In this document: piece by piece, positions 46,145 to 59,067 of the stretch | Layout: each line of letters starts with the position of its first letter | Position numbering within the stretch: position 1 is the first letter of the stretch | Assembly (NCBI GenBank): GCA_024707225.1 | Contig: JANQAE010000001.1 | Span: forward strand, 1,793,387 to 1,857,386 | DNA: 64,000 nucleotides | Direction of reading: 5' to 3' | Source of the DNA: Dokdonella sp. | GTDB lineage: Bacteria; Pseudomonadota; Gammaproteobacteria; Xanthomonadales; Rhodanobacteraceae | Translations under genes and position numbers: made by a program | The notes under the pieces: model-generated | The model's database searches: none | Told to the model about the DNA's origin: nothing | What the model saw: only the letters and a program-made list of their open reading frames with translations

Positions 46145-47084
46145 GACCTGCACATGCGGCACGCACGACGCTCGCAGCCTGGCTGCTCGCGGCGGCGGCC
46201 TGCCTGGCCGCGACGCCGGACGCGGACGACGAGGACGCGGCGGCGACGCCCTGGTGCTGACGCCGGCCCAAGTCGAGGCGATCGGCCTGCGCGTCGCGGC
46301 GCCGGTCGCGGCCGCGCCGTCGCGGCGGATCGCGGCCTACGGACGCGTGCTCGATTCGTCGCAGCCGATCGCCGCGTTCGCGGCGGTCGACGGCCAGCGC
46401 GCGGCCGAGCGCGCGGCGCGGCTCGAACGCGACCGGCTGCGCGGCCTGCACGCCGACGGTGCAGCCGCCGCGCTGCGCCGCGTCGAGGCGGCCGATGCCG
46501 AACTTGCGGCCGCGCAGGCCGCGCTCGCGGCCGGACAGGCCGCACTCGCGGCGCAATGGACGCCGCTGGCCCGCCTCGACGAGGCTCCGCGGCAGGCGCT
46601 GCTGGCGCGCCTGCGCGACGGCCGCAGCGTGCTGATCCGCGCCGATCTGCCGGGCCGGCAGCGCCTGGCCGTCCTGCCCGAGCGCGCGCAGGTGCGCGTC
46701 GACGGTGTCGAACACGCCGCCCAGGTGCTCGGCGCGCTGCGCAGCGGCCAGGCCGCGCTGCCGGCGCTGCTGCTGGAGCTCGCGCTCGACGGGCTCGGCG
46801 CCGGCGTTGCGCTGGCGGTCACGCTCGACGGCGAGCCGCTCGCCGGATTCCTGCTGCCGCAGGCGGCGCTGCTGTACGACGAGCACGGTGCGCACGTCTA
46901 CTGCGAGGACGCCGCCGCGACCGGCGCGACCGAACGGCGCTACCGGCGGCGCGCGGTCGAACCGCTGATGCCGGCCGGCGCGGCCTATCTGGTGCGCGGC
47001 GTCGACGGCGACGATCGCGTCGTCGTGCACGGACTGGGCCTGCTCTGGTCGATGCAGGGCGGTCCGGTCACCGACGACGACTGA
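46141..47084 (+). CDS. RND periplasmic adaptor subunit (apparent frameshift near 46245)
   Basis: ATG 46141 overlaps the TolC stop and encodes a signal-like N-terminus. Main body is in ORF 46254..47084 (GRVLD, LLPQAALLYDEHGAHVY, VVVHG). Confidence 0.75.
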
Positions 47085-47087
47085 CGC

Positions 47088-50000
47088 ATGCTCGCCGCCC
47101 TCGTCCGCGCCTCGCTGGCCCATCCGCGCATCGTCGCGGCGCTGGCGCTGCTGGTCACGCTGGCCGGCGCGTTCGCGCTGGCGCGCGCACGCTTCGACGT
47201 TTTCCCGGATTTCGCGCCGCCGTTCGTGCTGGTGCAGATCGAGGCGCCGGGCCTGTCGGCGCCGCAGGTCGAGGCGCAGGTGACGCGGCCGGTCGAGTCG
47301 CTGCTGGCCGGCACCGAGAACGTCGCGACGATCCGCTCCAGTTCGGCGCAGGGCCTGGCCGCGATCCGCGTGATCTTCCATCGCGGCAGCGATCCGCATC
47401 GCCAGCGCCAGGCCGTGATCGAGCGGCTGGCCGAGGCCGGCGGCCTGCTGCCCGACGGCGTGCGCGCGCCGCAGCTCTCACCGCTGTCCTCGTCGATGGA
47501 GTACCTGCTGCACTTCGGCTACACCAGCGACACCCTCGATCCGCTCGCACTGCGCGATCTCGTGCAATGGTCGGTCCAGCCGCAGATCCTCGCGGTGCCG
47601 GGCGTCGCGCACGTGCAGCTGTTCGGCGGCCAGGCGCGCGAGCGTCGCGTCGAGATCGACCCGCTGCGCCTGGCCGCGGCCGGGCTCGGACTCGACGCGG
47701 TCGTCGAGGCGATCGCGGCGGCCACCGCGCCGGCCGGCGCCGGCTACGTCGAGACCGCGGTGCAGCGGCTGGTGGTCCAGGTCGAGCCGACCGCGACCGA
47801 TGCCGCCGCGCTGGCCGCGGCCGTCGTCGATCTCGCCGATGGCGTGCCACGCCGGCTCGGCGACGTGGCGACCGTCGTCGACGGCGCGCAGCCGCTGTTC
47901 GGCGACGCGACGATCGCCGGCAAGCCGGGCATCCTCGTCGAGACCTCCTCGCAGTACGGCGCCAACACGCTGGAGGCCACGCGCGCGCTCGAGGCGCGGC
48001 TCGACGCGCTGGCGCCGGCGCTGGCGGCGCAGGGCGTCACCTACCATCCGGCGCTGCTGCGGCCGGCCAGCTTCGTCGAGCACGCGATCGAGAAGATGCG
48101 CCGCTCGCTGGTGATCGGCGCGGCCCTGGTCGTCGCGCTGCTGCTGGTGATGCTGCGCGACTGGCGCGGCGCGCTGATCTCGTTCAGCGCGATTCCGCTG
48201 GCGCTGCTGGCGGCGGTCTGGCTGCTGTCGGCCTGGGGCTTCAGCCTCAACACGATGACGCTCGGCGGCCTGGTCGTCGCGCTCGGCGTCGTCGTCGACG
48301 ATGCGGTGATCGACGTGGAGAACATCCTGCGCCGGCGCCGCGAGGCGGCCGCCGGTGCCGACGTCGACGCCCTGTTCGCCGCGGCCTCGCTCGAGGTGCG
48401 CCGGCCGGTGTTCTACGCGACCGCCGCGGTCGCGGTCGCGTTCGTGCCGATCCTGTCGATGAGCGGCCTGCAGGGCGCGTTCTTCGGTCCGCTGTCGATC
48501 GCGTTCCTGCTCGCGGTCGGACTGTCGCTGATCGTCGCGCTGGCGGTCACGCCGGCGCTGTGCATGCTGTTCATGCGCGACCACGCGCCGGCGCCGGAGG
48601 CGCGCTTCCTCGACCGCTGCAAGACCGTGCAGCGCGGCATCGTCGCGCGCGCGCGCGCGCGCGCCCGCTGCTGCCGGCCGTGCTGCTGATCGCGACCGGC
48701 GTGGCCGGCGTCGCGCTGCTGCCGCTGTTCGGCGCGCGGCTGCTGCCGGACTTCCGCGAGACCTATCTGATCGCGCACAGCGGCCTGCGGCCCGGCGTCG
48801 CGATCGCCGAGACCGCACGCGTCGGCCGCGAGGTGTCCGCGCGCCTGCTCGAGATCGACGGGGTGCGCAGCGTCGCCCAGCAGATCGGCCGCGCCGAGAA
48901 CGGCCAGGACACCGACACGCCGAACGAGAGCGAGTTCGAGATCCGCATCGAGCCGACCGCCGCCCGCCCGCTCGAGGCGATCGAGGCCGACATCCGTGCG
49001 GTGTTCGAGCGCTATCCGAACCAGCAGGCCGAGGTCTATTCGGTGCTGGCCGAGCGCATCGGCGAGACGCTGACCGGCGAGAGCGCGCCGTTCTCGGTCG
49101 GCGTGTTCGGCAGCGATCTGGACGAGAACGACCGCGTCGCCGCGGCGATCGCCGAGGTGATCGACGATCTGCCCGATGCGGCCGGCGTGCGCCTGGTCGT
49201 GCCGCCGCGCGAGCCGCAGCTGCGCGTGCAGCTCGACGGCGAGGCCCTGGCGCTGCACGGCCTGGCCGCCGGCGAGGTGCTGCGCACGATCCAGGCCGCA
49301 TTCCACGGCACCGTCGCGGCCGAGATGACGCTGCCGGACCGCAGTCTGCCGGTGGTCGTGCGCATCGCCGGCGGCGACGGCGGACCGGACGCGCTGCGGC
49401 GCCTGCCGCTGCGCGGACGCGACGGCGCGACCGTCACGCTCGGCGAGCTCGCGTCGATCGATCTGGTCAGCGCGCGCAGCGTGCTCGACCACGAAGATGG
49501 ATTGCGCCGCCAGGTCGTCGTCGCGCGGCCCGAAGGCGGCGACCACGTCGGCTTCGCGGCGCGCGCGCGAGGCGATCGCGGCGCAGGTGACGTTGCCGCC
49601 CGGCGTCTACCTGCGCTACGGCGGCAGCGCCGAAGCGCAGCGCGCGGCCGCGCGCGAGCTGATCGTGCACTCGGGATTCGCCGCCGTCGTGATCGTGCTG
49701 CTGCTGGCGCTCGCGTTCGGGCGCGCGCGCCACGTCGCGCTGACGCTGGCCGCGCTGCCGAGCACGCTGATCGGCGGCGTCGCCGCGCTGTGGCTCAGCG
49801 GGGGCACGCTGAACCTCGGTGCGATGGTCGGCTTCGTCGCGCTGTTCGGCATGGCCGCGCGCAATACGATCCTGCTGATCTCGCACTACGACCATCTGGT
49901 GCACGCCGAGGGCGCGCCGTGGACACTGGAAACCGCCCTGCGCGGTGCGACCGAGCGCCTTACGCCGGTGCTGCTGACCGCGCTGCTGACCGCGCTGGCG

Positions 50001-50159
50001 CTGTTGCCGGTCGCGCTGCAGAGCCGCGAGGCCGGCCACGAGATCGAAGGCCCGATGGCGATCGTGCTGCTCGGCGGCCTGGTCTCCTCGACCCTGGTCA
50101 GCCTGCTGCTGATTCCGCCGCTGGCGGTGCGCTGGCTGCGCATGGCGCCGGCGCGCTGA
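47088..50159 (+). CDS. HME-type (CusA/CzcA-like) RND transporter (two apparent frameshifts near 48655 and 49560)
   Basis: FDVFPDFAPP.V.VQIEAPGL, NTMTLGGL...VVDDAVIDVENI, EAGHEIEGPMAIVLLGGL. Confidence 0.88.
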
Positions 50160-50226
50160 CCGCGCCGAAACCGCGGCGCGCGGACGTCCGCTGTCCGCAC
50201 GCCGCATCCACCACCACGGGGGAACC

Positions 50227-51881
50227 TCAGTCGAAACCTTCGGCCAGCAGCGATTCGGGCACGCCGGCCGATCCGCGCAGGTACAGCTGGGCCAGGCTGC
50301 TGATGCCCTGCACGTTGACGCGCACCAGCACACGGCCGTTGCTGCTGGCCCAGCCGTCCTCGCCGAGATAGTTCTGATCGATCAGGCCGGACGTGGTGAC
50401 CGAGGTCACCACACGGTCCTCCGGGCCGGTCGCGGTCGGCACCTTGACCAGGTCGCCCGGTCCGAGCTCGCGCACCGGCGCCGCGCCGGGGCGCAGCCGC
50501 CAGATGCCGCGCTCGTTCGGGTTGCCGACCTCGCCGAAGATCAGCACCTCGCCGCTGTCGAGCACCTGCGTGCGGTGGAACTCGCGCCACGGCCGGCCCG
50601 GCGCGGCGGCGTAGCTGCCGGTGTCGCCGACGATCGCGATCGGCTCCGGCGGCAGGCCCGGCACCAGGCGCCAGACGCCGGCGGTCGAACTGGTGCCGGC
50701 GATCGGCTTGATCGTCGTGCGCAGCAGGCCGTAGCGCCCGGCGCGGCCAGCTCGGTCGGTGCGCCGGTCGCGTTGAACACATAGCCGCTGTAGCCCGGGC
50801 CGAGGCTGCCCTCCACGTTGTACAGATAGACCGGCGCGTTCTGTCCGTCGGCGTGCAGGAAGCCGCCGTTGCTCGAGCCGTTCGGCGAGCTCACGCGCGC
50901 CCAGAAGTAGAACGCGTCGCGATGCGCCGGGCGGATCGCGCCGAACTCGCTGAACGTGTAGGAGGTGTCGTTCATCCCCGGCCCGAGGCTGCCGGTCACC
51001 GCCGCACGCGCCTGCACTTGCGGCGCGCCGCGGCACAGCGAGAAAATCCCGCGGCCGTTGGTCCCGCTTTCGCGGAACGCGGCGGCGACGTAGACCTCGC
51101 CACGGCTACCGACCACCGGCATGTCGATCGTGTAGCTGCCGCTGTCGTAGAACACCGCCGAGCCGATGCCGGGCGCATAGGCGGGTTCGTTCGATCCCTC
51201 CAGCAAGCAGGCGCGATTGCCGACCCCTCCCTGATGCAGGATCACCGCGTGCAGCGAGCCGGTCACGGTCGCATCGATCAGGACCCGCTGTCCCGGCAGT
51301 GCGCGTGCGCGCGGGTAGCCGGTGCTGGTGGTCGTGCCGAGATTCGTGAACACGACGCCGGCACCGAGGCCGGGGCCGAGCGCCCCTTCGGTATTGAGCC
51401 GCGCGATCTCGGCATTGGCCGAGCCGTTCCACATCCATACGCCGTAGGTCGCCGCATCGGCCGGCTGGGTCGGCTCGCCGGCGCGCGCGCCGAAGACGCG
51501 ATGGGCCTGGCCGCTCGAATCCTGCTTCTGGAACAGCGTGCGGAACACGTGGCCGGCCTCGCCGCCGCTGCGGCCCGGCCCGGTCGCGCCGGTGGCCATG
51601 TTCTCGGCGATCGGCGTCAACGTGCCGTTGCGCTCGGCCCACAGCGAGAACGGGCCGGCGCTGCCGGCGTTGCGCGCGAAGCCGAGGGCGCCGTTGCCAC
51701 CGCTGGCCAGCGAGGCCCATTCCAGATCGAAACCGGTCGCCGAAGGCAGCAGCGGCGGGATGGCCAGGCCCGAGTCGGTGTCGGCGGCGACGACGCGCCA
51801 GTCGGGGGCGGCCTGAGCGGCCGGTCCGCCGAGCGCGAGCGCGCAGGCGACGGCCAGGCCGGCGGGAAGGGTGCGGGACAT
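50227..51881 (-). CDS. Secreted tandem-repeat (beta-propeller-like) protein with C-terminal ESLLAEGFD tail (apparent frameshift near 50745)
   Basis: Signal peptide MSRTLPAGLAVACALALGGPAAQA; a [GA]PG-x4-6-F unit recurs about six times at roughly 60-aa spacing; C-terminal part is in ORF 50227..51036. Confidence 0.72.
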
Positions 51882-52026
51882 CAGGGGTTCTCCATGTCGA
51901 TCGATCGGGTGCTGCCCGCCGCGCGGCCGCACCGGCGACGGGATACCGGTGGCGGCCGCTGCGGCGAGCAGGGCGGCGGCAGTCTAGGCAGCGCGCCGGT
52001 CCGGGTCGGCACGGATCGGCACCGGC

Positions 52027-52046
52027 GCGGTAACGAAGCGGTAACG
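52027..52046. promoter_or_regulatory. Tandem direct repeat, 11-bp period (OmpR/CadC wHTH-type site)
   Basis: GCGGTAACG-AA-GCGGTAACG in the divergent intergenic region. Confidence 0.6.
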
Positions 52047-52161
52047 GCATCGATCCGGCATGCCGCTGCGATGACGGATCGATGATTCAACTGAGACAGT
52101 GCGCCGCGCGACGCAGACAGGGGTGGCTGCGCGCGCGGCTCGGACATGAGGCGGAAGAACG

Positions 52162-54945
52162 ATGAAAGACACCCCATTCCCGCGTGAGCAGACCTGCTAT
52201 CGCTACCGGTTCGGCACGGCGGAATTCGACGAGGCGACCTACGAGCTGCGCGTGGCCGGACTGCGCGTGGAGGTCGAGCGGCGCGCGCTGGAGGTGCTGG
52301 CCTGCCTGCTGCGCCACGCCGGCGAGGTGGTCACCAAGGAAGAACTGTTCGCCGAGGTCTGGGCCGGCCGCGTCACCGTCGACAAGGTGCTGCCGAACGC
52401 GATCGCCAAGCTGCGCCGCGCGCTCGGCGAAGCCAATGCCGAGCTGCTGACGACGCAGGCCCGGATCGGCTACCGCCTGAGCGGCCTGATCGAGCGCGTC
52501 GCGATCGGCCGCACCCTGCCCAATCCGCTCGCGCTGCGCGCCGGCCAGCCGGTGCCGGGCCGCGAGAACTTCATCCTGCGCCGTCAGCTCGGCGGCCATC
52601 ACGACAGCGAGGTCTGGCTGGCCGAGCACGCCAAGACGCACGAGAAGCGCGTCTACAAGTTCGCGGTCGGCGACGACCGGCTCAAGGCGCTCAAGCGCGA
52701 GGCGACACTGGCGCGCGTGCTGCAGGAGAGCCTGGAAGGGCCGCGCCCGTTCGTCGACCTGATCGACTGGAACTTCGAGAGCGCGCCGTTCTTCCTCGAA
52801 TGCGGCTACGGCGGCCAGAGCCTGCAGGCCTGGGCCGAGCACGCGCTGGCGGCGCTGCCGACGGACGAGCGGCTCGCGCTGTTTCTCGACGTCGCCGACG
52901 CGGTCGCGGCCGCGCACGCGGTCGGCGTGCTGCACAAGGACCTCAAACCCGCCAACGTGCTGGTCGAGACCGACGGCGACCGGCGCCGCGTGCGCCTGAC
53001 CGACTTCGGCAGCGGCCGCATGCTCGATCCGGACCGCATCGAGGAGCTCGGCATCACGCGTTTCGGCCTGTCGGCGACCCAGCACCTGGCCGCCGACTCC
53101 TCGTCCGGCACGCCGCTGTACCTGGCGCCGGAGGTGTTCGCCGGATACGCCTCGACCGTGCGCAGCGACGTCTACGCGCTCGGCGTGATGCTCTACCAGC
53201 TGGTCGCCGGCCAGATCGCCAAGCCGATGGCGTCGGGCTGGGAGCAGGACGTCGACGACCCGCTGCTGCGCGAGGACATCGCGCAGGCCACGCACGGCGA
53301 CCCGGCGCAGCGCCTGGGCAGTGCCGCGGAACTGGCCGCTCGCCTGCGCGCATTGCCGGCCCGGCATGCCGCGAACCGGCGCGCGCGCGAGGCCGCGGCG
53401 CAGGCCGCGCGCGAGCACGAGTCGCTGGCACGCAGCCGCGCGCGGCGTCCGTATCTGGTCGCACTCGTCGCGGTGCTGGTCGCCGGCGTGGTCAGCGCGC
53501 TGGCGCTGTACCGCGCCGCCGTACAGGCGCGTGACCAGGCCGAGCGCGAGCTGGCCTCGGCGGTCGCGATCAACCGCTTCCTCAACGAGGACCTGATCAG
53601 CCGCGCCAATCCGCTGGTCGTCGCCAAGGGCCAGGGCGCGACGCTGCAGGACGTTCTGGTCGGCGCGCGCGAGCGCATCGCCGGCCGCTTCGCCGGGCAG
53701 CCGCTGGTCGAGGCCTCGATCCGCAGCAGCCTGAGCGCCCTGTTCAACACGATCGAGCGCCTGCCCGACGCCGAGGACGAGGCGCGCCGCGCGCTGGCGC
53801 TGTACGAGCGCGAGGAAGGCCCGTCCAGCCTCGACGCGCTGAAGGCGCGCGGCGTGCTGATCCGCCTGCTGACGCGCACCGCCAAGTTCGACGAATGCCT
53901 GCGCGAGCTGCAGACCTTCGATCGTTTGTTGGAAAGCTCGACCGAGCCGTATGCGGCGTACCTGCAAGCCTACGCCTGGGGCATCTACCACATGAACCGC
54001 GGCGACTACGCCAAGGCCCTGCCCGAATACCGCAAGGCGATCCCGGAGCTGGCCGAACTCGAACCGCGCAACCGCATCCTGCGCGATTCGCTGCGCATGG
54101 ACCTGATCGGCGCGCTGACCCAGACCGGCCAGCTCGACGAAGCGCGCCGCGAGGGCGAGGCGCTGATCGCCGAGATGCGCGGACGCGGCGACGAGAACGG
54201 TCTGACGATCGCGTTCGCGCGCGCGGCGGTCGCGCGCACCTGGACGCTCGAGGGCGACTACGAAACCGCGCAGACCCAGCTGCTCGACGCGCAGAAGACG
54301 ATCGTCGCGCTGCTCGGACCGGAGCACACGCGCAATCTGATGGTGCTGAGCGATCTGTTCGACATCGCGATGCGCCGCCAGGACTGGCCGGCCGCGCTCG
54401 GCTACGCGCAGCGCGTGCACGAAGGCTTCCGCGCCAAGCTCGGCGAGGGCCACAACGTCAGCGACGCGACGCTGGCCAACTGGGGTCAGGCGCTGTACGA
54501 GAGCGGCGACGCGGCCGGCGCCTATGCGCGCCTGGCGCCGGCTCAGCAGCGCCTGGCCGAGCGGCTATCGGCCGACAATCCGCAGACCCAGCTCGCCGGC
54601 TTCTGGACCGCAGCGGCCGCCGTCGAGACCGGCCGGCTCGACGCGGCCGAGGCGATCATGGCGACGTTGAAGGCCGACACGCTCGAGGCCGGTGCAGGCG
54701 ATGGCTTGTGGACCTACCGCCTCGACGCGCTGCGAGGCCTGCTCGCGGCCGCGCGCGGCGGCCGCGATGAGGCCGGCATCGCGCTGCGCAGCGCATTGGC
54801 CGGCATCGAGAACCACGACGGCCCGCCGAGCCGCGTGTTCGACGCCGCACGCCGCGCACTGGCCGGCGGTGACGCGGCCAACGGCGCTTCCGTGCCAGCG
54901 GCGCGCGCCGCACAATCGCCGCTTTCCCGCGAGAGCCTGCCATGA
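52162..54945 (+). CDS. CadC/OmpR-type wHTH - Ser/Thr kinase - TM - TPR fusion protein
   Basis: Trans_reg_C (VVTKEELFAEVW...AIAKLRRALG...GYRL); kinase VYK, HKDLKPANVL, TDFGSG, GTPLYLAPE, SDVYALG; TM YLVALVAVLVAGVVSALAL; helical repeats. Confidence 0.92.
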   Translation: MKDTPFPREQTCYRYRFGTAEFDEATYELRVAGLRVEVERRALEVLACLLRHAGEVVTKEELFAEVWAGRVTVDKVLPNAIAKLRRALGEANAELLTTQARIGYRLSGLIERVAIGRTLPNPLALRAGQPVPGRENFILRRQLGGHHDSEVWLAEHAKTHEKRVYKFAVGDDRLKALKREATLARVLQESLEGPRPFVDLIDWNFESAPFFLECGYGGQSLQAWAEHALAALPTDERLALFLDVADAVAAAHAVGVLHKDLKPANVLVETDGDRRRVRLTDFGSGRMLDPDRIEELGITRFGLSATQHLAADSSSGTPLYLAPEVFAGYASTVRSDVYALGVMLYQLVAGQIAKPMASGWEQDVDDPLLREDIAQATHGDPAQRLGSAAELAARLRALPARHAANRRAREAAAQAAREHESLARSRARRPYLVALVAVLVAGVVSALALYRAAVQARDQAERELASAVAINRFLNEDLISRANPLVVAKGQGATLQDVLVGARERIAGRFAGQPLVEASIRSSLSALFNTIERLPDAEDEARRALALYEREEGPSSLDALKARGVLIRLLTRTAKFDECLRELQTFDRLLESSTEPYAAYLQAYAWGIYHMNRGDYAKALPEYRKAIPELAELEPRNRILRDSLRMDLIGALTQTGQLDEARREGEALIAEMRGRGDENGLTIAFARAAVARTWTLEGDYETAQTQLLDAQKTIVALLGPEHTRNLMVLSDLFDIAMRRQDWPAALGYAQRVHEGFRAKLGEGHNVSDATLANWGQALYESGDAAGAYARLAPAQQRLAERLSADNPQTQLAGFWTAAAAVETGRLDAAEAIMATLKADTLEAGAGDGLWTYRLDALRGLLAAARGGRDEAGIALRSALAGIENHDGPPSRVFDAARRALAGGDAANGASVPAARAAQSPLSRESLP

Positions 54946-55629
54946 CCTACGCCTTCCCCGCACCGCCGATCGCCAGCGTGCCGATCGCCGGCGAAGCCGA
55001 GCGCTTCCCGGTGCACCGGATCTACTGCATCGGCCGCAACTACGCCGATCATGCGCGCGAGATGGGCGCAACCGCCGGACCGCTCGCAGCCGGTGTTCTT
55101 CATGAAGCCGGCCGACGCGATCGTGACCGACGGGGCCGACGTGCCGTATCCGCAGGCGACCGGGGATCTGCATCACGAGGTCGAGATGGTTGTCGCGCTC
55201 GGCGCCGGCGGTCGCGACATCGCGGCCGCCGACGCGCTCGGCTGCGTGTTCGGCTACGGCGTCGGCCTGGACCTGACGCGACGCGATCTGCAGGCGCGCG
55301 CGAAGGCCGGGGGCCTGCCGTGGGACGTCGCCAAGGGCTTCGACCATTCCGCGCCGGTCTCGGCGCTGCATCGTGCGGCAGCGATCGGCCATCCGGCACG
55401 CGGCGCGCTGACGCTGCACGTCGGCGGTGCGCTGCGCCAGAACGGCGACGTCGCCGACATGGTGTTCAGCGTCGCCGAGGTCATCCACGAGCTATCGCGG
55501 CTGTACGAATTGCGCGCCGGCGATCTGATCTTCACCGGCACGCCGGCCGGCGTCGCGGCGTTGCAACGCGGCGACGTCTTCGTCGCGGCGCTGGACGGCG
55601 TCGCGACGCTCGAGGGCCGCGTCGTCTGA
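54942..55629 (+). CDS. Fumarylacetoacetate hydrolase family protein (apparent frameshift near 55072)
   Basis: RIYCIGRNYADHARE, FFMKP, LHHEVE, GLDLTRRDLQ, AKGFD, GDLIFTGTPAGV. Confidence 0.92.
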
Positions 55630-55651
55630 GGCCGCCCCGCTTTGAGTGCAC

Positions 55652-55680: not shown

Positions 55681-55859
55681 GGATCACGCATCGAACCGGC
55701 AGCGTCCCGTCGGCGCATCACGCCGCCGCGCATCCGGTACGGCGCCGCCAGCACGAGCGGCCGGACAGCCCTCGCCGCGTTCGAGCGCCACATCGTCCGA
55801 CGCCCCGGCCCTGACGACACGCAGCCGGCACCGGCGAGGCACCGGCCGCGTGCGATGCC

Positions 55860-59056
<3,197 letters not shown>

Positions 59057-59067
<11 letters not shown>

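What the first reader, a model, noticed from the sequence alone, without database searches (positions are those of the whole stretch)
52027..52046. 11-bp-period direct repeat in the promoter shared by the wHTH-kinase and the secreted repeat protein
Seen: GCGGTAACG-AA-GCGGTAACG, an exact 9-mer repeated one helical turn apart, about 145 bp upstream of the secreted gene and 115 bp upstream of the kinase gene. Established: OmpR/PhoB wHTH domains bind head-to-tail repeats with a 10-11 bp period. Inference: this is the operator of the adjacent wHTH-kinase, making a compact sensor-to-secreted-effector module.
Basis: partly seen in the sequence, partly recalled or inferred. Interest (0 to 1): 0.65.

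Follow-up and report, generated by a model that had tools for sequence, protein, structure and literature searches.

The report
Conserved operator of a kinase-fused regulator
The repeated 9-mer is real and belongs to a four-unit array of DNA repeats spaced one helical turn apart; the array is kept beside the same membrane-bound DNA-binding kinase gene across many bacterial genera, so it is very probably that protein's own docking site for switching on the neighbouring exported-protein gene.

Summary
In detail: GCGGTAACG occurs at 52027-52035 and 52038-52046, with the stated distances to both genes. As an exact 9-mer repeat it is near chance for 64 kb.

It is, however, the best-kept half of a four-unit head-to-tail array: CGGCAC, CGGCACC, CGGTAAC, CGGTAAC at 52007-52046, spaced 10, 11 and 11 bp. 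The pair GGTAAC-N5-GGTAAC occurs once in the 4.37-Mb Dokdonella genome.

The array lies upstream of 31 of 33 related wHTH-kinase genes with the same recognition helix (TV[DE]KVLPNA), across Dokdonella, Tahibacter, Chiayiivirga, Rudaea and more distant families. Identity between lineages is 0.83 in the core units. It is 0.28-0.32 in the flanks, which is random level.

A TAnnnT element that looks like a -10 box sits on the secreted-gene strand, a fixed 20-21 nt from the first unit in 18 of 22 aligned loci. That would place the array at about -33 to -71 of that promoter.

Paralogous wHTH-kinases with other recognition helices carry other repeats with a 10-11 bp period, for example CTTCAAG. Copies of the secreted gene that lie away from a kinase lack the array.

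Binding, the transcription start and the role of the kinase domain remain untested. I found no literature on this family.

The parts
52007..52046 (+). The whole operator array: four head-to-tail units, with start-to-start spacing of 10, 11 and 11 bp.
   Evidence: Sequence reading. Gapless alignment of 22 orthologous loci. Pairwise identity is 0.66 over the array against 0.28-0.32 in the flanks.
52007..52012 (+). Unit 1, CGGCAC(G). This is the unit nearest the secreted-gene promoter, at a predicted -38 to -33.
   Evidence: In 22 aligned loci, C/G/G/C/A/C/G are kept in 14, 19, 15, 18, 18, 20 and 19 loci respectively.
52017..52023 (+). Unit 2, CGGCACC(G). This is the most degenerate unit, with pattern CGnnAnCG.
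52028..52034 (+). Unit 3, CGGTAAC(G).
   Evidence: Each position is kept in 20-22 of 22 loci.
52039..52045 (+). Unit 4, CGGTAAC(G).
   Evidence: The GGTAACG positions are kept in 17-21 of 22 loci.
51981..51986 (-). Predicted -10 hexamer, TAGACT, of the secreted-gene promoter. It lies 20 nt from unit 1.
   Evidence: TAnnnT (TAGCAT, TAGACT, TAGTAT, TACGCT, TAGGCT) lies 20-21 nt from unit 1 in 18 of 22 loci, although the spacer sequence is random. The same geometry holds in L085, L086, L090 and L092. The transcription start is not mapped. The strict consensus scan finds no sigma-70 promoter in the spacer.
52162..54945 (+). Gene for the wHTH - Hanks Ser/Thr kinase - TM - TPR-like protein (927 aa), the presumed binder of the array.
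   Evidence: Pfam Trans_reg_C at residues 35-106 and Pkinase at 142-353. A single hydrophobic helix at 431-450. The C-terminal region matches a TPR model.
52375..52425 (+). Codons for the presumed recognition helix, TVDKVLPNAIAKLRRAL (residues 72-88).
   Evidence: Alignment with PDB OmpR-family domains and CadC. The helix is invariant in all loci that carry the CGGTAAC array and differs in paralogues with other repeats.
50227..51882 (-). Divergent gene for an exported protein of about 550 aa. It has a signal peptide, repeated LGPG motifs and a GFD tail, and is the presumed regulated target. The window copy has a one-base gap near 50742.
   Evidence: Homologues lie divergent to the kinase in 21 of 23 loci.

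Best explanation
The 40-bp array at 52007-52046 is the operator of the adjacent 927-residue protein, which reads N-terminal OmpR/PhoB-type winged helix, Hanks-type Ser/Thr kinase, one transmembrane helix, periplasmic TPR-like domain.

Proposed mechanism. Up to four wHTH domains bind head to tail on one face of the DNA, one per 10-11 bp unit. The two invariant distal units (CGGTAAC) would be the high-affinity anchor. The two weaker proximal units (CGGCAC) would be filled cooperatively. The proximal unit abuts the -35 position of the secreted-gene promoter, which has a -10-like TAGACT but no recognisable -35 box. The array would span about -33 to -71, so the bound protein could recruit RNA polymerase and switch on the exported-protein gene.

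Because the regulator is held in the membrane, having its only strong site in the genome next to its own gene would keep the search for that site short. The kinase and periplasmic domains presumably decide when the wHTH domains can oligomerise on the array.

Shown here: the array itself, its conservation, its fixed geometry, its linkage to the kinase gene, and the pairing of helix sequence with repeat sequence.

Inferred: binding, activation rather than repression, the transcription start, and any role of phosphorylation.
For: - Array and spacing.
- The pair GGTAAC-N5-GGTAAC is unique in the 4.37-Mb genome.
- In the genus, 7 of 10 exact pattern matches across 37 genomes are the site upstream of the kinase orthologue, on the kinase strand.
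- GGTAA[AC] occurs at 5.65 per kb in the 300 nt upstream, against 0.066 per kb elsewhere in the same loci, and is present in 23 of 23 loci.
- Core identity is 0.83 against 0.28-0.32 in the flanks among 18 lineages whose kinases are 51-77% identical to the window's (best aligned segment).
- The -10-like TAnnnT keeps a 20-21 nt distance while the spacer sequence is random.
- The recognition helix TV[DE]KVLPNA goes with CGGTAAC. TVDHVL[AS]TA goes with CTTCAAG in nine loci from several genera. VSEN[ST]L.KA goes with TTCTGAA or ATCCTGA.
- The array persists where the divergent neighbour is different (L015, L059). It is absent upstream of secreted-gene homologues not next to a kinase (L111, L118; L112 has no GGTAAC-type hit, only a possible degenerate remnant).
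- The wHTH is a genuine OmpR/PhoB-type domain (Pfam E = 7e-13). Its best solved relatives are GlnR and CadC.
- GlnR is known to load four protomers head to tail around a -35 element (PMC10235972).
Against: - No binding, expression or transcription-start data exist.
- Within the single locus the statistics are modest.
- The -10 assignment rests on a 4-of-6 match, and the strict promoter scan finds nothing.
- Two loci of the group (L040, L043) have CAGACT or GAGCAT instead of TAnnnT.
- Some relatives lack any array: L083, L089, L016/L094, L102, and the VTEGVL-helix group.
- The genome encodes dozens of other OmpR-type wHTH proteins that could in principle use the site.
- The target gene carries a frameshift in this assembly.
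Confidence: 0.68

Rival explanations
1. The array is bound by the adjacent wHTH-kinase, but its main job is autoregulation of the kinase gene, as activator or roadblock. Control of the secreted gene would be secondary or absent.
For: The array follows the kinase gene even where the divergent neighbour changes (L015, L059). All units read on the kinase-sense strand. In the CTTCAAG paralogue group a -10-like TAAGAT or CAGAAT lies 14 nt downstream of the last unit, pointing into the kinase gene.
Against: In the CGGTAAC group nothing conserved lies on the kinase side of the array, and the distance to the kinase ATG varies from 63 to 190 nt. The only fixed partner element is the -10-like hexamer on the secreted-gene side.
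Confidence: 0.17
2. The array is an OmpR/PhoB-type operator, but for a different regulator: a classical response regulator or one of the many other N-terminal wHTH proteins of this genome. It would merely be linked to the locus.
For: The genome has dozens of Trans_reg_C-like matches. The array architecture is generic for the family.
Against: The site is unique in the genome. It travels with the kinase gene across families. Its sequence changes together with the recognition helix of the adjacent protein in paralogous groups. An unlinked regulator would not be expected to show this.
Confidence: 0.1
3. The repeat has no protein-binding function. It would be a chance repeat, a remnant of a repeated or mobile element, tandem ECF-sigma -35-like boxes (GGAAC/GTAAC), or an RNA element in a 5' UTR.
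For: Exact 9-mer repeats at offset 11 occur about 4 times per window by chance. GGTAAC resembles ECF -35 motifs (from general knowledge).
Against: Conservation of the cores at 0.83 against random flanks. The site occurs once in the genome, so it is not a repeated element. There is no Rfam match. No conserved -10 partner lies downstream of any unit on the plus strand. Four copies with strict helical phasing are not what a promoter box or an RNA motif looks like.
Confidence: 0.03

Closest known systems
PhoB pho boxes and OmpR F/C sites (operators of OmpR/PhoB response regulators)
   Same: Head-to-tail direct repeats with a conserved core of about 7 bp plus a variable spacer of about 4 bp and a 10-11 bp period. 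Several adjacent sites of graded quality lie at or upstream of a promoter that lacks a good -35 box. The binding domain belongs to the same Pfam family (Trans_reg_C).
   Different: The presumed binder has no receiver domain and no partner histidine kinase. Its wHTH is N-terminal and fused to a Hanks-type kinase and a membrane anchor. The proximal unit lies 20-21 nt from the -10 element, further than a pho box (about 10 bp, from general knowledge).
GlnR transcription activation complex of actinobacteria (PDB 8HIH; PMC10235972)
   Same: GlnR is the best solved-structure match to this wHTH. Four protomers bind four tandem sites head to tail around the -35 element. That is the stoichiometry and position proposed here.
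   Different: GlnR is a soluble orphan response regulator whose receiver domains bridge to RNA polymerase. Here the domain that follows the wHTH is a kinase, and the protein is membrane-bound.
SARP operators (ActII-ORF4, AfsR, PimR; PMC10936776, PMC5930380)
   Same: Heptameric direct repeats with 4-nt spacers, giving an 11-bp period, in 2-3 copies. They are bound by an OmpR-type wHTH that is fused to large extra domains including TPR. PimR's heptamer CGGCAAG even resembles CGGTAAC.
   Different: SARPs have a BTAD domain, and the 3' repeat lies 8 bp from the -10 element. No BTAD domain is detected here, the distance is 20-21 nt, the protein is membrane-anchored, and the host is a gammaproteobacterium.
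ToxR / CadC / TcpP-type membrane-integrated one-component regulators
   Same: N-terminal cytoplasmic wHTH, a single transmembrane helix and a periplasmic sensor. CadC is among the best PDB and NCBIfam matches to the wHTH. The operator lies close to a local target.
   Different: A complete Hanks-type kinase domain (HKD, DFG and APE motifs present) lies between the wHTH and the membrane. No ToxR-like protein described in the papers I found has one.

Membership tests
OmpR/PhoB-type tandem direct-repeat operator | Half-sites arranged as head-to-tail direct repeats, not palindromes | tested here: met
   Four units lie on the same strand. There are 39 same-strand against 3 opposite-strand GGTAA[AC] hits in 23 upstream regions.
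OmpR/PhoB-type tandem direct-repeat operator | Centre-to-centre spacing of about one helical turn (10-11 bp) | tested here: met
   Spacing is 10, 11 and 11 bp in the window, and the same register holds in 22 aligned loci without gaps.
OmpR/PhoB-type tandem direct-repeat operator | Conserved 6-7 bp core followed by a less conserved spacer of about 4 bp | tested here: met
   Column counts: the core CGGTAACG is kept in 20-22 of 22 loci in unit 3, and the spacer positions vary.
OmpR/PhoB-type tandem direct-repeat operator | Lies at or just upstream of the -35 region of the regulated promoter | tested here: inconclusive
   A -10-like TAnnnT lies a fixed 20-21 nt from unit 1 in 18 of 22 loci. No transcription start is mapped, and the strict promoter scan is negative.
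OmpR/PhoB-type tandem direct-repeat operator | Bound specifically by a wHTH effector domain | not testable with these tools
   Only indirect evidence is available: linkage to the kinase gene and matching changes in helix and repeat.
ToxR/CadC-like membrane one-component regulator (the presumed binder) | N-terminal cytoplasmic OmpR-type wHTH, one transmembrane helix and a periplasmic C-terminal domain | tested here: met
   Trans_reg_C at residues 35-106. The only strongly hydrophobic 19-mer windows start at 427-438, with a Kyte-Doolittle peak of 2.67 at 431-450. The C-terminal region matches a TPR model. The topology itself is inferred.
ToxR/CadC-like membrane one-component regulator (the presumed binder) | Cytoplasmic part consists of the wHTH and a linker only, with no enzymatic signalling domain | tested here: not met
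   Pkinase domain at residues 142-353, E = 1.8e-21.
SARP (Streptomyces antibiotic regulatory protein) and its operator | wHTH followed by a bacterial transcriptional activation domain (BTAD) | tested here: not met
   No BTAD hit in Pfam at E <= 0.01.
SARP (Streptomyces antibiotic regulatory protein) and its operator | Heptamer repeats with an 11-bp period, the 3' repeat lying 8 bp from the -10 element | tested here: not met
   The period is met. The distance to the -10-like element is 20-21 nt, against 8 bp for SARPs (PMC10936776).
Classical two-component response regulator | N-terminal receiver domain with a phospho-acceptor Asp | tested here: not met
   No Response_reg hit. The wHTH starts at about residue 13 of the protein.

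The most novel reading that the evidence does not exclude
The wHTH-Hanks-kinase-TM-TPR proteins of Xanthomonadales and relatives would be a so far undescribed class of one-protein signalling route, running from a periplasmic signal through a eukaryote-type kinase to a promoter. Each subfamily would carry its own operator of 10-11 bp repeats next to its gene. A small set of recognition-helix residues (K75/P78/N79 here, against H/A/T in the CTTCAAG group) would set the heptamer read, giving a natural, readable specificity code. Kinase autophosphorylation, rather than a receiver domain, would gate cooperative loading of four DNA-binding domains.
Probability: 0.35. Interest if true: 0.75.

Novelty: new variant of a known kind. 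Interest (0 to 1): 0.58.

Why it matters
As DNA, the element is an ordinary OmpR-family operator. Its presumed reader is not ordinary. It is a membrane-anchored transcription factor with a built-in eukaryote-type Ser/Thr kinase, and I found no published study of this family.

Bacterial Hanks kinases are usually linked to transcription only indirectly, by phosphorylating separate regulators. Here sensor, kinase, DNA-binding domain, operator and a single local target gene lie within 5 kb, and the site is unique in the genome. The whole path from signal to gene can therefore be tested with one protein, one 40-bp DNA fragment and one reporter.

The paralogous pairs of helix and repeat offer ready-made specificity swaps. 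The graded four-site layout allows a direct comparison with the GlnR, OmpR and PhoB loading models.

Tried and rejected
- Consensus promoter and terminator scan of 51800-52250: nothing found. This fits an activator-dependent promoter but proves nothing.
- Rfam search of 51700-52300 at E <= 1: no match. An RNA-element reading was dropped.
- The repeat finder on the spacer did not list the 9-mer pair at all. I relied on direct reading and my own scripts.
- The inverted repeat it did list at 52048-52084 is kept only in the closest relatives and was not pursued.
- A periodicity test on single loci is only moderately significant for the window (3 of 200 shuffles). It fails for several orthologues with degenerate units, so it is not a good detector. 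It found no direct-repeat array for L016, L018, L048, L049 and L064.
- ECF-sigma promoter reading of GGTAAC: rejected, because no conserved -10 partner exists on the plus strand and there are four phased copies.
- Repeated or mobile element: rejected, because the site is unique in the genome.
- Extra pattern matches in the genus: two in G023 are inside coding sequence and look like chance.
- Family assignment of the secreted protein: no Pfam or NCBIfam hit above noise.
- Literature searches for Trans_reg_C + Pkinase fusions, OmpR-type wHTH with Ser/Thr kinase, and Dokdonella kinases returned nothing relevant.

Full report
**1. The observation**

Window 52027-52046 reads GCGGTAACG-AA-GCGGTAACG. 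These are the only two exact copies of the 9-mer in the window.

The element lies in a 279-bp spacer between two divergent genes.
- One is a minus-strand gene whose ATG is at 51882, preceded by GGAGAA. It encodes a protein with a signal peptide.
- The other is a plus-strand 927-codon gene at 52162-54945.

An exact repeat of 9 or more bases at offset 11 occurs four times in this 70.7% G+C window.

Two things change that within this genome.
- The pair is the well-kept half of a four-unit array: CGGCAC (52007), CGGCACC (52017), CGGTAAC (52028) and CGGTAAC (52039), with start-to-start spacing of 10, 11 and 11 bp.
- GGTAAC is a rare word: 175 copies on both strands of 4.37 Mb, against 301 expected from dinucleotide frequencies. 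GGTAAC-N5-GGTAAC occurs exactly once in the genome.

A three-unit periodicity score for the 300 nt upstream of the kinase is reached by 3 of 200 dinucleotide shuffles.

**2. The neighbours**

The plus-strand protein has these parts:
- an OmpR/PhoB-type winged helix (Pfam Trans_reg_C, residues 35-106, E = 7e-13);
- a Hanks-type protein kinase domain (residues 142-353, E = 1.8e-21; HKD, DFG and APE motifs present);
- one strongly hydrophobic helix at 431-450;
- a C-terminal region that matches a TPR model.

It has no receiver domain and no BTAD domain. Its closest solved relatives by sequence are GlnR (8hih, 8hml), CadC (5ju7) and other OmpR-family DNA-binding domains.

The minus-strand gene encodes an exported protein of about 550 residues with repeated LGPG motifs and a GFD tail. 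It has no Pfam or NCBIfam family.

Record titles of near-identical and related contigs place the organism in Dokdonella.

**3. Conservation beside orthologues**

Whole-genome searches found orthologues of the kinase in 11 of the 36 other genomes of the genus, at 53-95% identity. A scan of public genomes added Dokdonella fugitiva, Tahibacter, Chiayiivirga, Rudaea and unnamed lineages. An order-wide search added members from four further GTDB families.

After orienting all loci on the kinase gene, every upstream region of this group shows the same array.

I aligned 22 loci without gaps, anchored on unit 3.
- Unit 3 is CGGTAACG, with each position kept in 20-22 of 22 loci.
- Unit 4 is GGTAACG, kept in 17-21 of 22.
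- Units 1 and 2 keep the skeleton CGG.A.CG.
- Information content is near zero outside the array.

Among 18 distinct lineages the pairwise identity is as follows.

| Region | Pairwise identity |
|---|---|
| Cores of units 3 and 4 | 0.83 |
| Whole 40-nt array | 0.66 |
| Spacer and flanks | 0.28-0.32 (random level for this base composition) |

GGTAA[AC] occurs at 5.65 per kb on the kinase-sense strand of the 300 nt upstream. Elsewhere in the same loci it occurs at 0.066 per kb.

Across the 37 genomes of the genus, 7 of the 10 exact GGTAAC-N5-GGTAAC matches are this site.

Counting all loci whose recognition helix reads TV[DE]KVLPNA, 31 of 33 have the array. The exceptions are the second gene of a tandem pair (L083) and one locus with a co-oriented upstream gene (L089).

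**4. Geometry**

To the left of unit 1, on the strand of the secreted gene, a hexamer of the form TAnnnT lies at a fixed distance of 20-21 nt in 18 of 22 aligned loci. In the window it is TAGACT, the complement of 51981-51986. Elsewhere it is mostly TAGCAT or TAGTAT. The same holds in L085, L086, L090 and L092. The sequence between the hexamer and unit 1 is random.

If this is the -10 element, transcription would start near 51974. The four units would then lie at about -33/-38, -43/-49, -54/-60 and -65/-71. The proximal unit would replace a -35 box; the bases at that position read CCGACC.

No consensus sigma-70 promoter exists anywhere in the spacer. That is what an activator-dependent promoter looks like.

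On the kinase side of the array nothing is conserved. The distance from unit 3 to the start of the kinase match varies from 63 to 190 nt.

**5. Whose site is it?**

Three lines of evidence tie the array to the adjacent wHTH-kinase rather than to the secreted gene or to an unlinked regulator.

- **The array follows the kinase gene.** It is kept in L015, where the divergent neighbour is a LytTR protein followed by FG-GAP-like and BNR-like exported proteins. It is also kept in L059, where the neighbour looks like an ECF sigma factor. Homologues of the secreted protein that are not next to a kinase (L111, L112, L118) have no CGGTAAC array. L112 shows at most a possible degenerate remnant.
- **The recognition helix is invariant (TVDKVLPNA) wherever the array is CGGTAAC**.
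- **Paralogues with other helices have other repeats.** The table lists them.

| Recognition helix | Repeat upstream | Loci |
|---|---|---|
| TVDHVL[AS]TA | GTCCTCACG-N4-[CT]TTCAAG-N4-CTTCAAG | L002, L045, L046, L017/L082, L078-L081, L088 (this genome and several other genera) |
| VSEN[ST]L.KA | TTCTGAA or ATCCTGA, period 10 | L071, L101, L106 |
| Single divergent helices | TCGCACGGAAT, CCTCACGAAAC, TTCTCACAGAG | L066, L067, L068 |

This is the pattern expected if each wHTH reads the repeat next to its own gene. It is not universal. Loci of the VTEGVL-helix group show no direct-repeat array, and two of them share a near-palindrome instead.

**6. Mechanism proposed**

Shown: a conserved, phased, four-unit direct-repeat array that is unique in the genome. 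It is linked to the gene of an OmpR-type wHTH protein and sits in fixed register with a -10-like element of the divergent gene.

From established knowledge: OmpR/PhoB-family domains bind such repeats head to tail, one protomer per turn. The solved GlnR activation complex has four protomers on four tandem sites around the -35 element (PMC10235972). SARPs read heptamers with 4-nt spacers (PMC5930380, PMC10936776).

Inferred:
- Up to four wHTH domains of the membrane-anchored kinase load on the array.
- The invariant distal units act as the anchor, and the weaker proximal units are filled cooperatively.
- The bound protein recruits RNA polymerase to the secreted-gene promoter.
- The periplasmic TPR-like domain and the kinase control oligomerisation, and hence loading.
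- Placing the site next to the regulator's own gene eases the search problem of a membrane-bound factor, as discussed for CadC (PMC7888679, title and abstract only).

Autoregulation of the kinase gene is a live alternative or an additional function.

**7. Comparison and novelty**

The DNA element meets the tested defining features of an OmpR/PhoB-type tandem operator: direct orientation, 10-11 bp period, and a core plus spacer. Its position at a promoter is likely but not mapped, and binding is untested.

The presumed binder is not a response regulator, since it has no receiver domain. It is not a SARP, since it has no BTAD domain and the distance to the -10 element is different. It is not a canonical ToxR/CadC protein, since it contains a kinase.

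Full-text searches found no paper on Trans_reg_C-Pkinase fusions. I therefore rate the element as a new variant of a known kind. It is an ordinary-looking operator that serves an unstudied class of regulator.

**8. Caveats**

No experimental or expression data were available.

The window copy of the secreted gene lacks one base near 50742 relative to two close relatives, and so reads as two frames. The FAH-family gene just downstream of the kinase is also frameshifted in the window but intact in the same relatives. Two indels within 5 kb suggest assembly errors rather than decay, but this could not be checked.

Noticed in passing
window 50227-51882 (-), near 50742: The exported-protein gene reads in two frames. 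The window lacks one base in a GCCGC(G/C)GCCGG stretch relative to two close relatives (L050, L056), whose copies are intact at 551 aa.
   Followed up: yes
window 54942-55630 (+), near 55077: The gene overlapping the kinase stop codon encodes a fumarylacetoacetate-hydrolase-family protein. It is frameshifted after about residue 45 in the window but intact (228 aa) in L050 and L056. Two indels within 5 kb suggest assembly errors. The odd AcrB-like ORFs at 46154-50371 and 55684-59067, with only partial Pfam coverage, may have the same cause.
   Followed up: partly
G000:C3:242186-244849 (L002/L077), same genome, outside the window: A paralogous wHTH-kinase (44% identical) has its own three-unit array, CCTCACG-N4-CTTCAAG-N4-CTTCAAG, about 100 nt upstream, followed 14 nt later by TAAGAT. 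It lies divergent to an exported protein that looks RCC1-like by eye. The array is kept in nine loci of several genera.
   Followed up: yes
G013:C1:1483613-1483629 (L076 3014-3030): A relative has a second exact CGGTAAC-N4-CGGTAAC pair in a long intergenic region, about 240 nt upstream of an unrelated exported protein with the same GFD tail. It may be a second target of that genome's regulator. It has only two units and no -10-like element at the usual distance.
   Followed up: partly
G104:C4:76676-82182 (L103, L083): Two wHTH-kinase genes with the same recognition helix lie in tandem. Only the upstream one has the CGGTAAC array.
   Followed up: no
L097 and L105 (G205, G116), about 100-150 nt upstream of the kinase genes: wHTH-kinases with the helix VVTEGVLAKC or IVTDASLSKA share a near-palindromic GAAGGATTTATTCC instead of direct repeats. 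Other members of that helix group show no detectable array.
   Followed up: no
window 52048-52084: An inverted repeat with 14-nt arms (CATCGATCCGGCAT / ATGACGGATCGATG) lies directly after unit 4, between the array and the kinase gene. It is kept only in the closest relatives (L040, L041).
   Followed up: partly
L073 242-3612 (G004:C51, upstream of L015): In this orthologous locus the divergent operon starts with a LytTR-domain protein, followed by an FG-GAP-like and a BNR/Ycf48-like exported protein. Both exported proteins end in GFE-type tails. The neighbour has been exchanged, but it is again an exported repeat protein.
   Followed up: partly
whole genome G000: The genome has about 60 matches to the kinase or wHTH of this protein. 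Many are large ORFs that begin with an OmpR-type wHTH, which suggests a very large set of N-terminal-wHTH membrane regulators.
   Followed up: no
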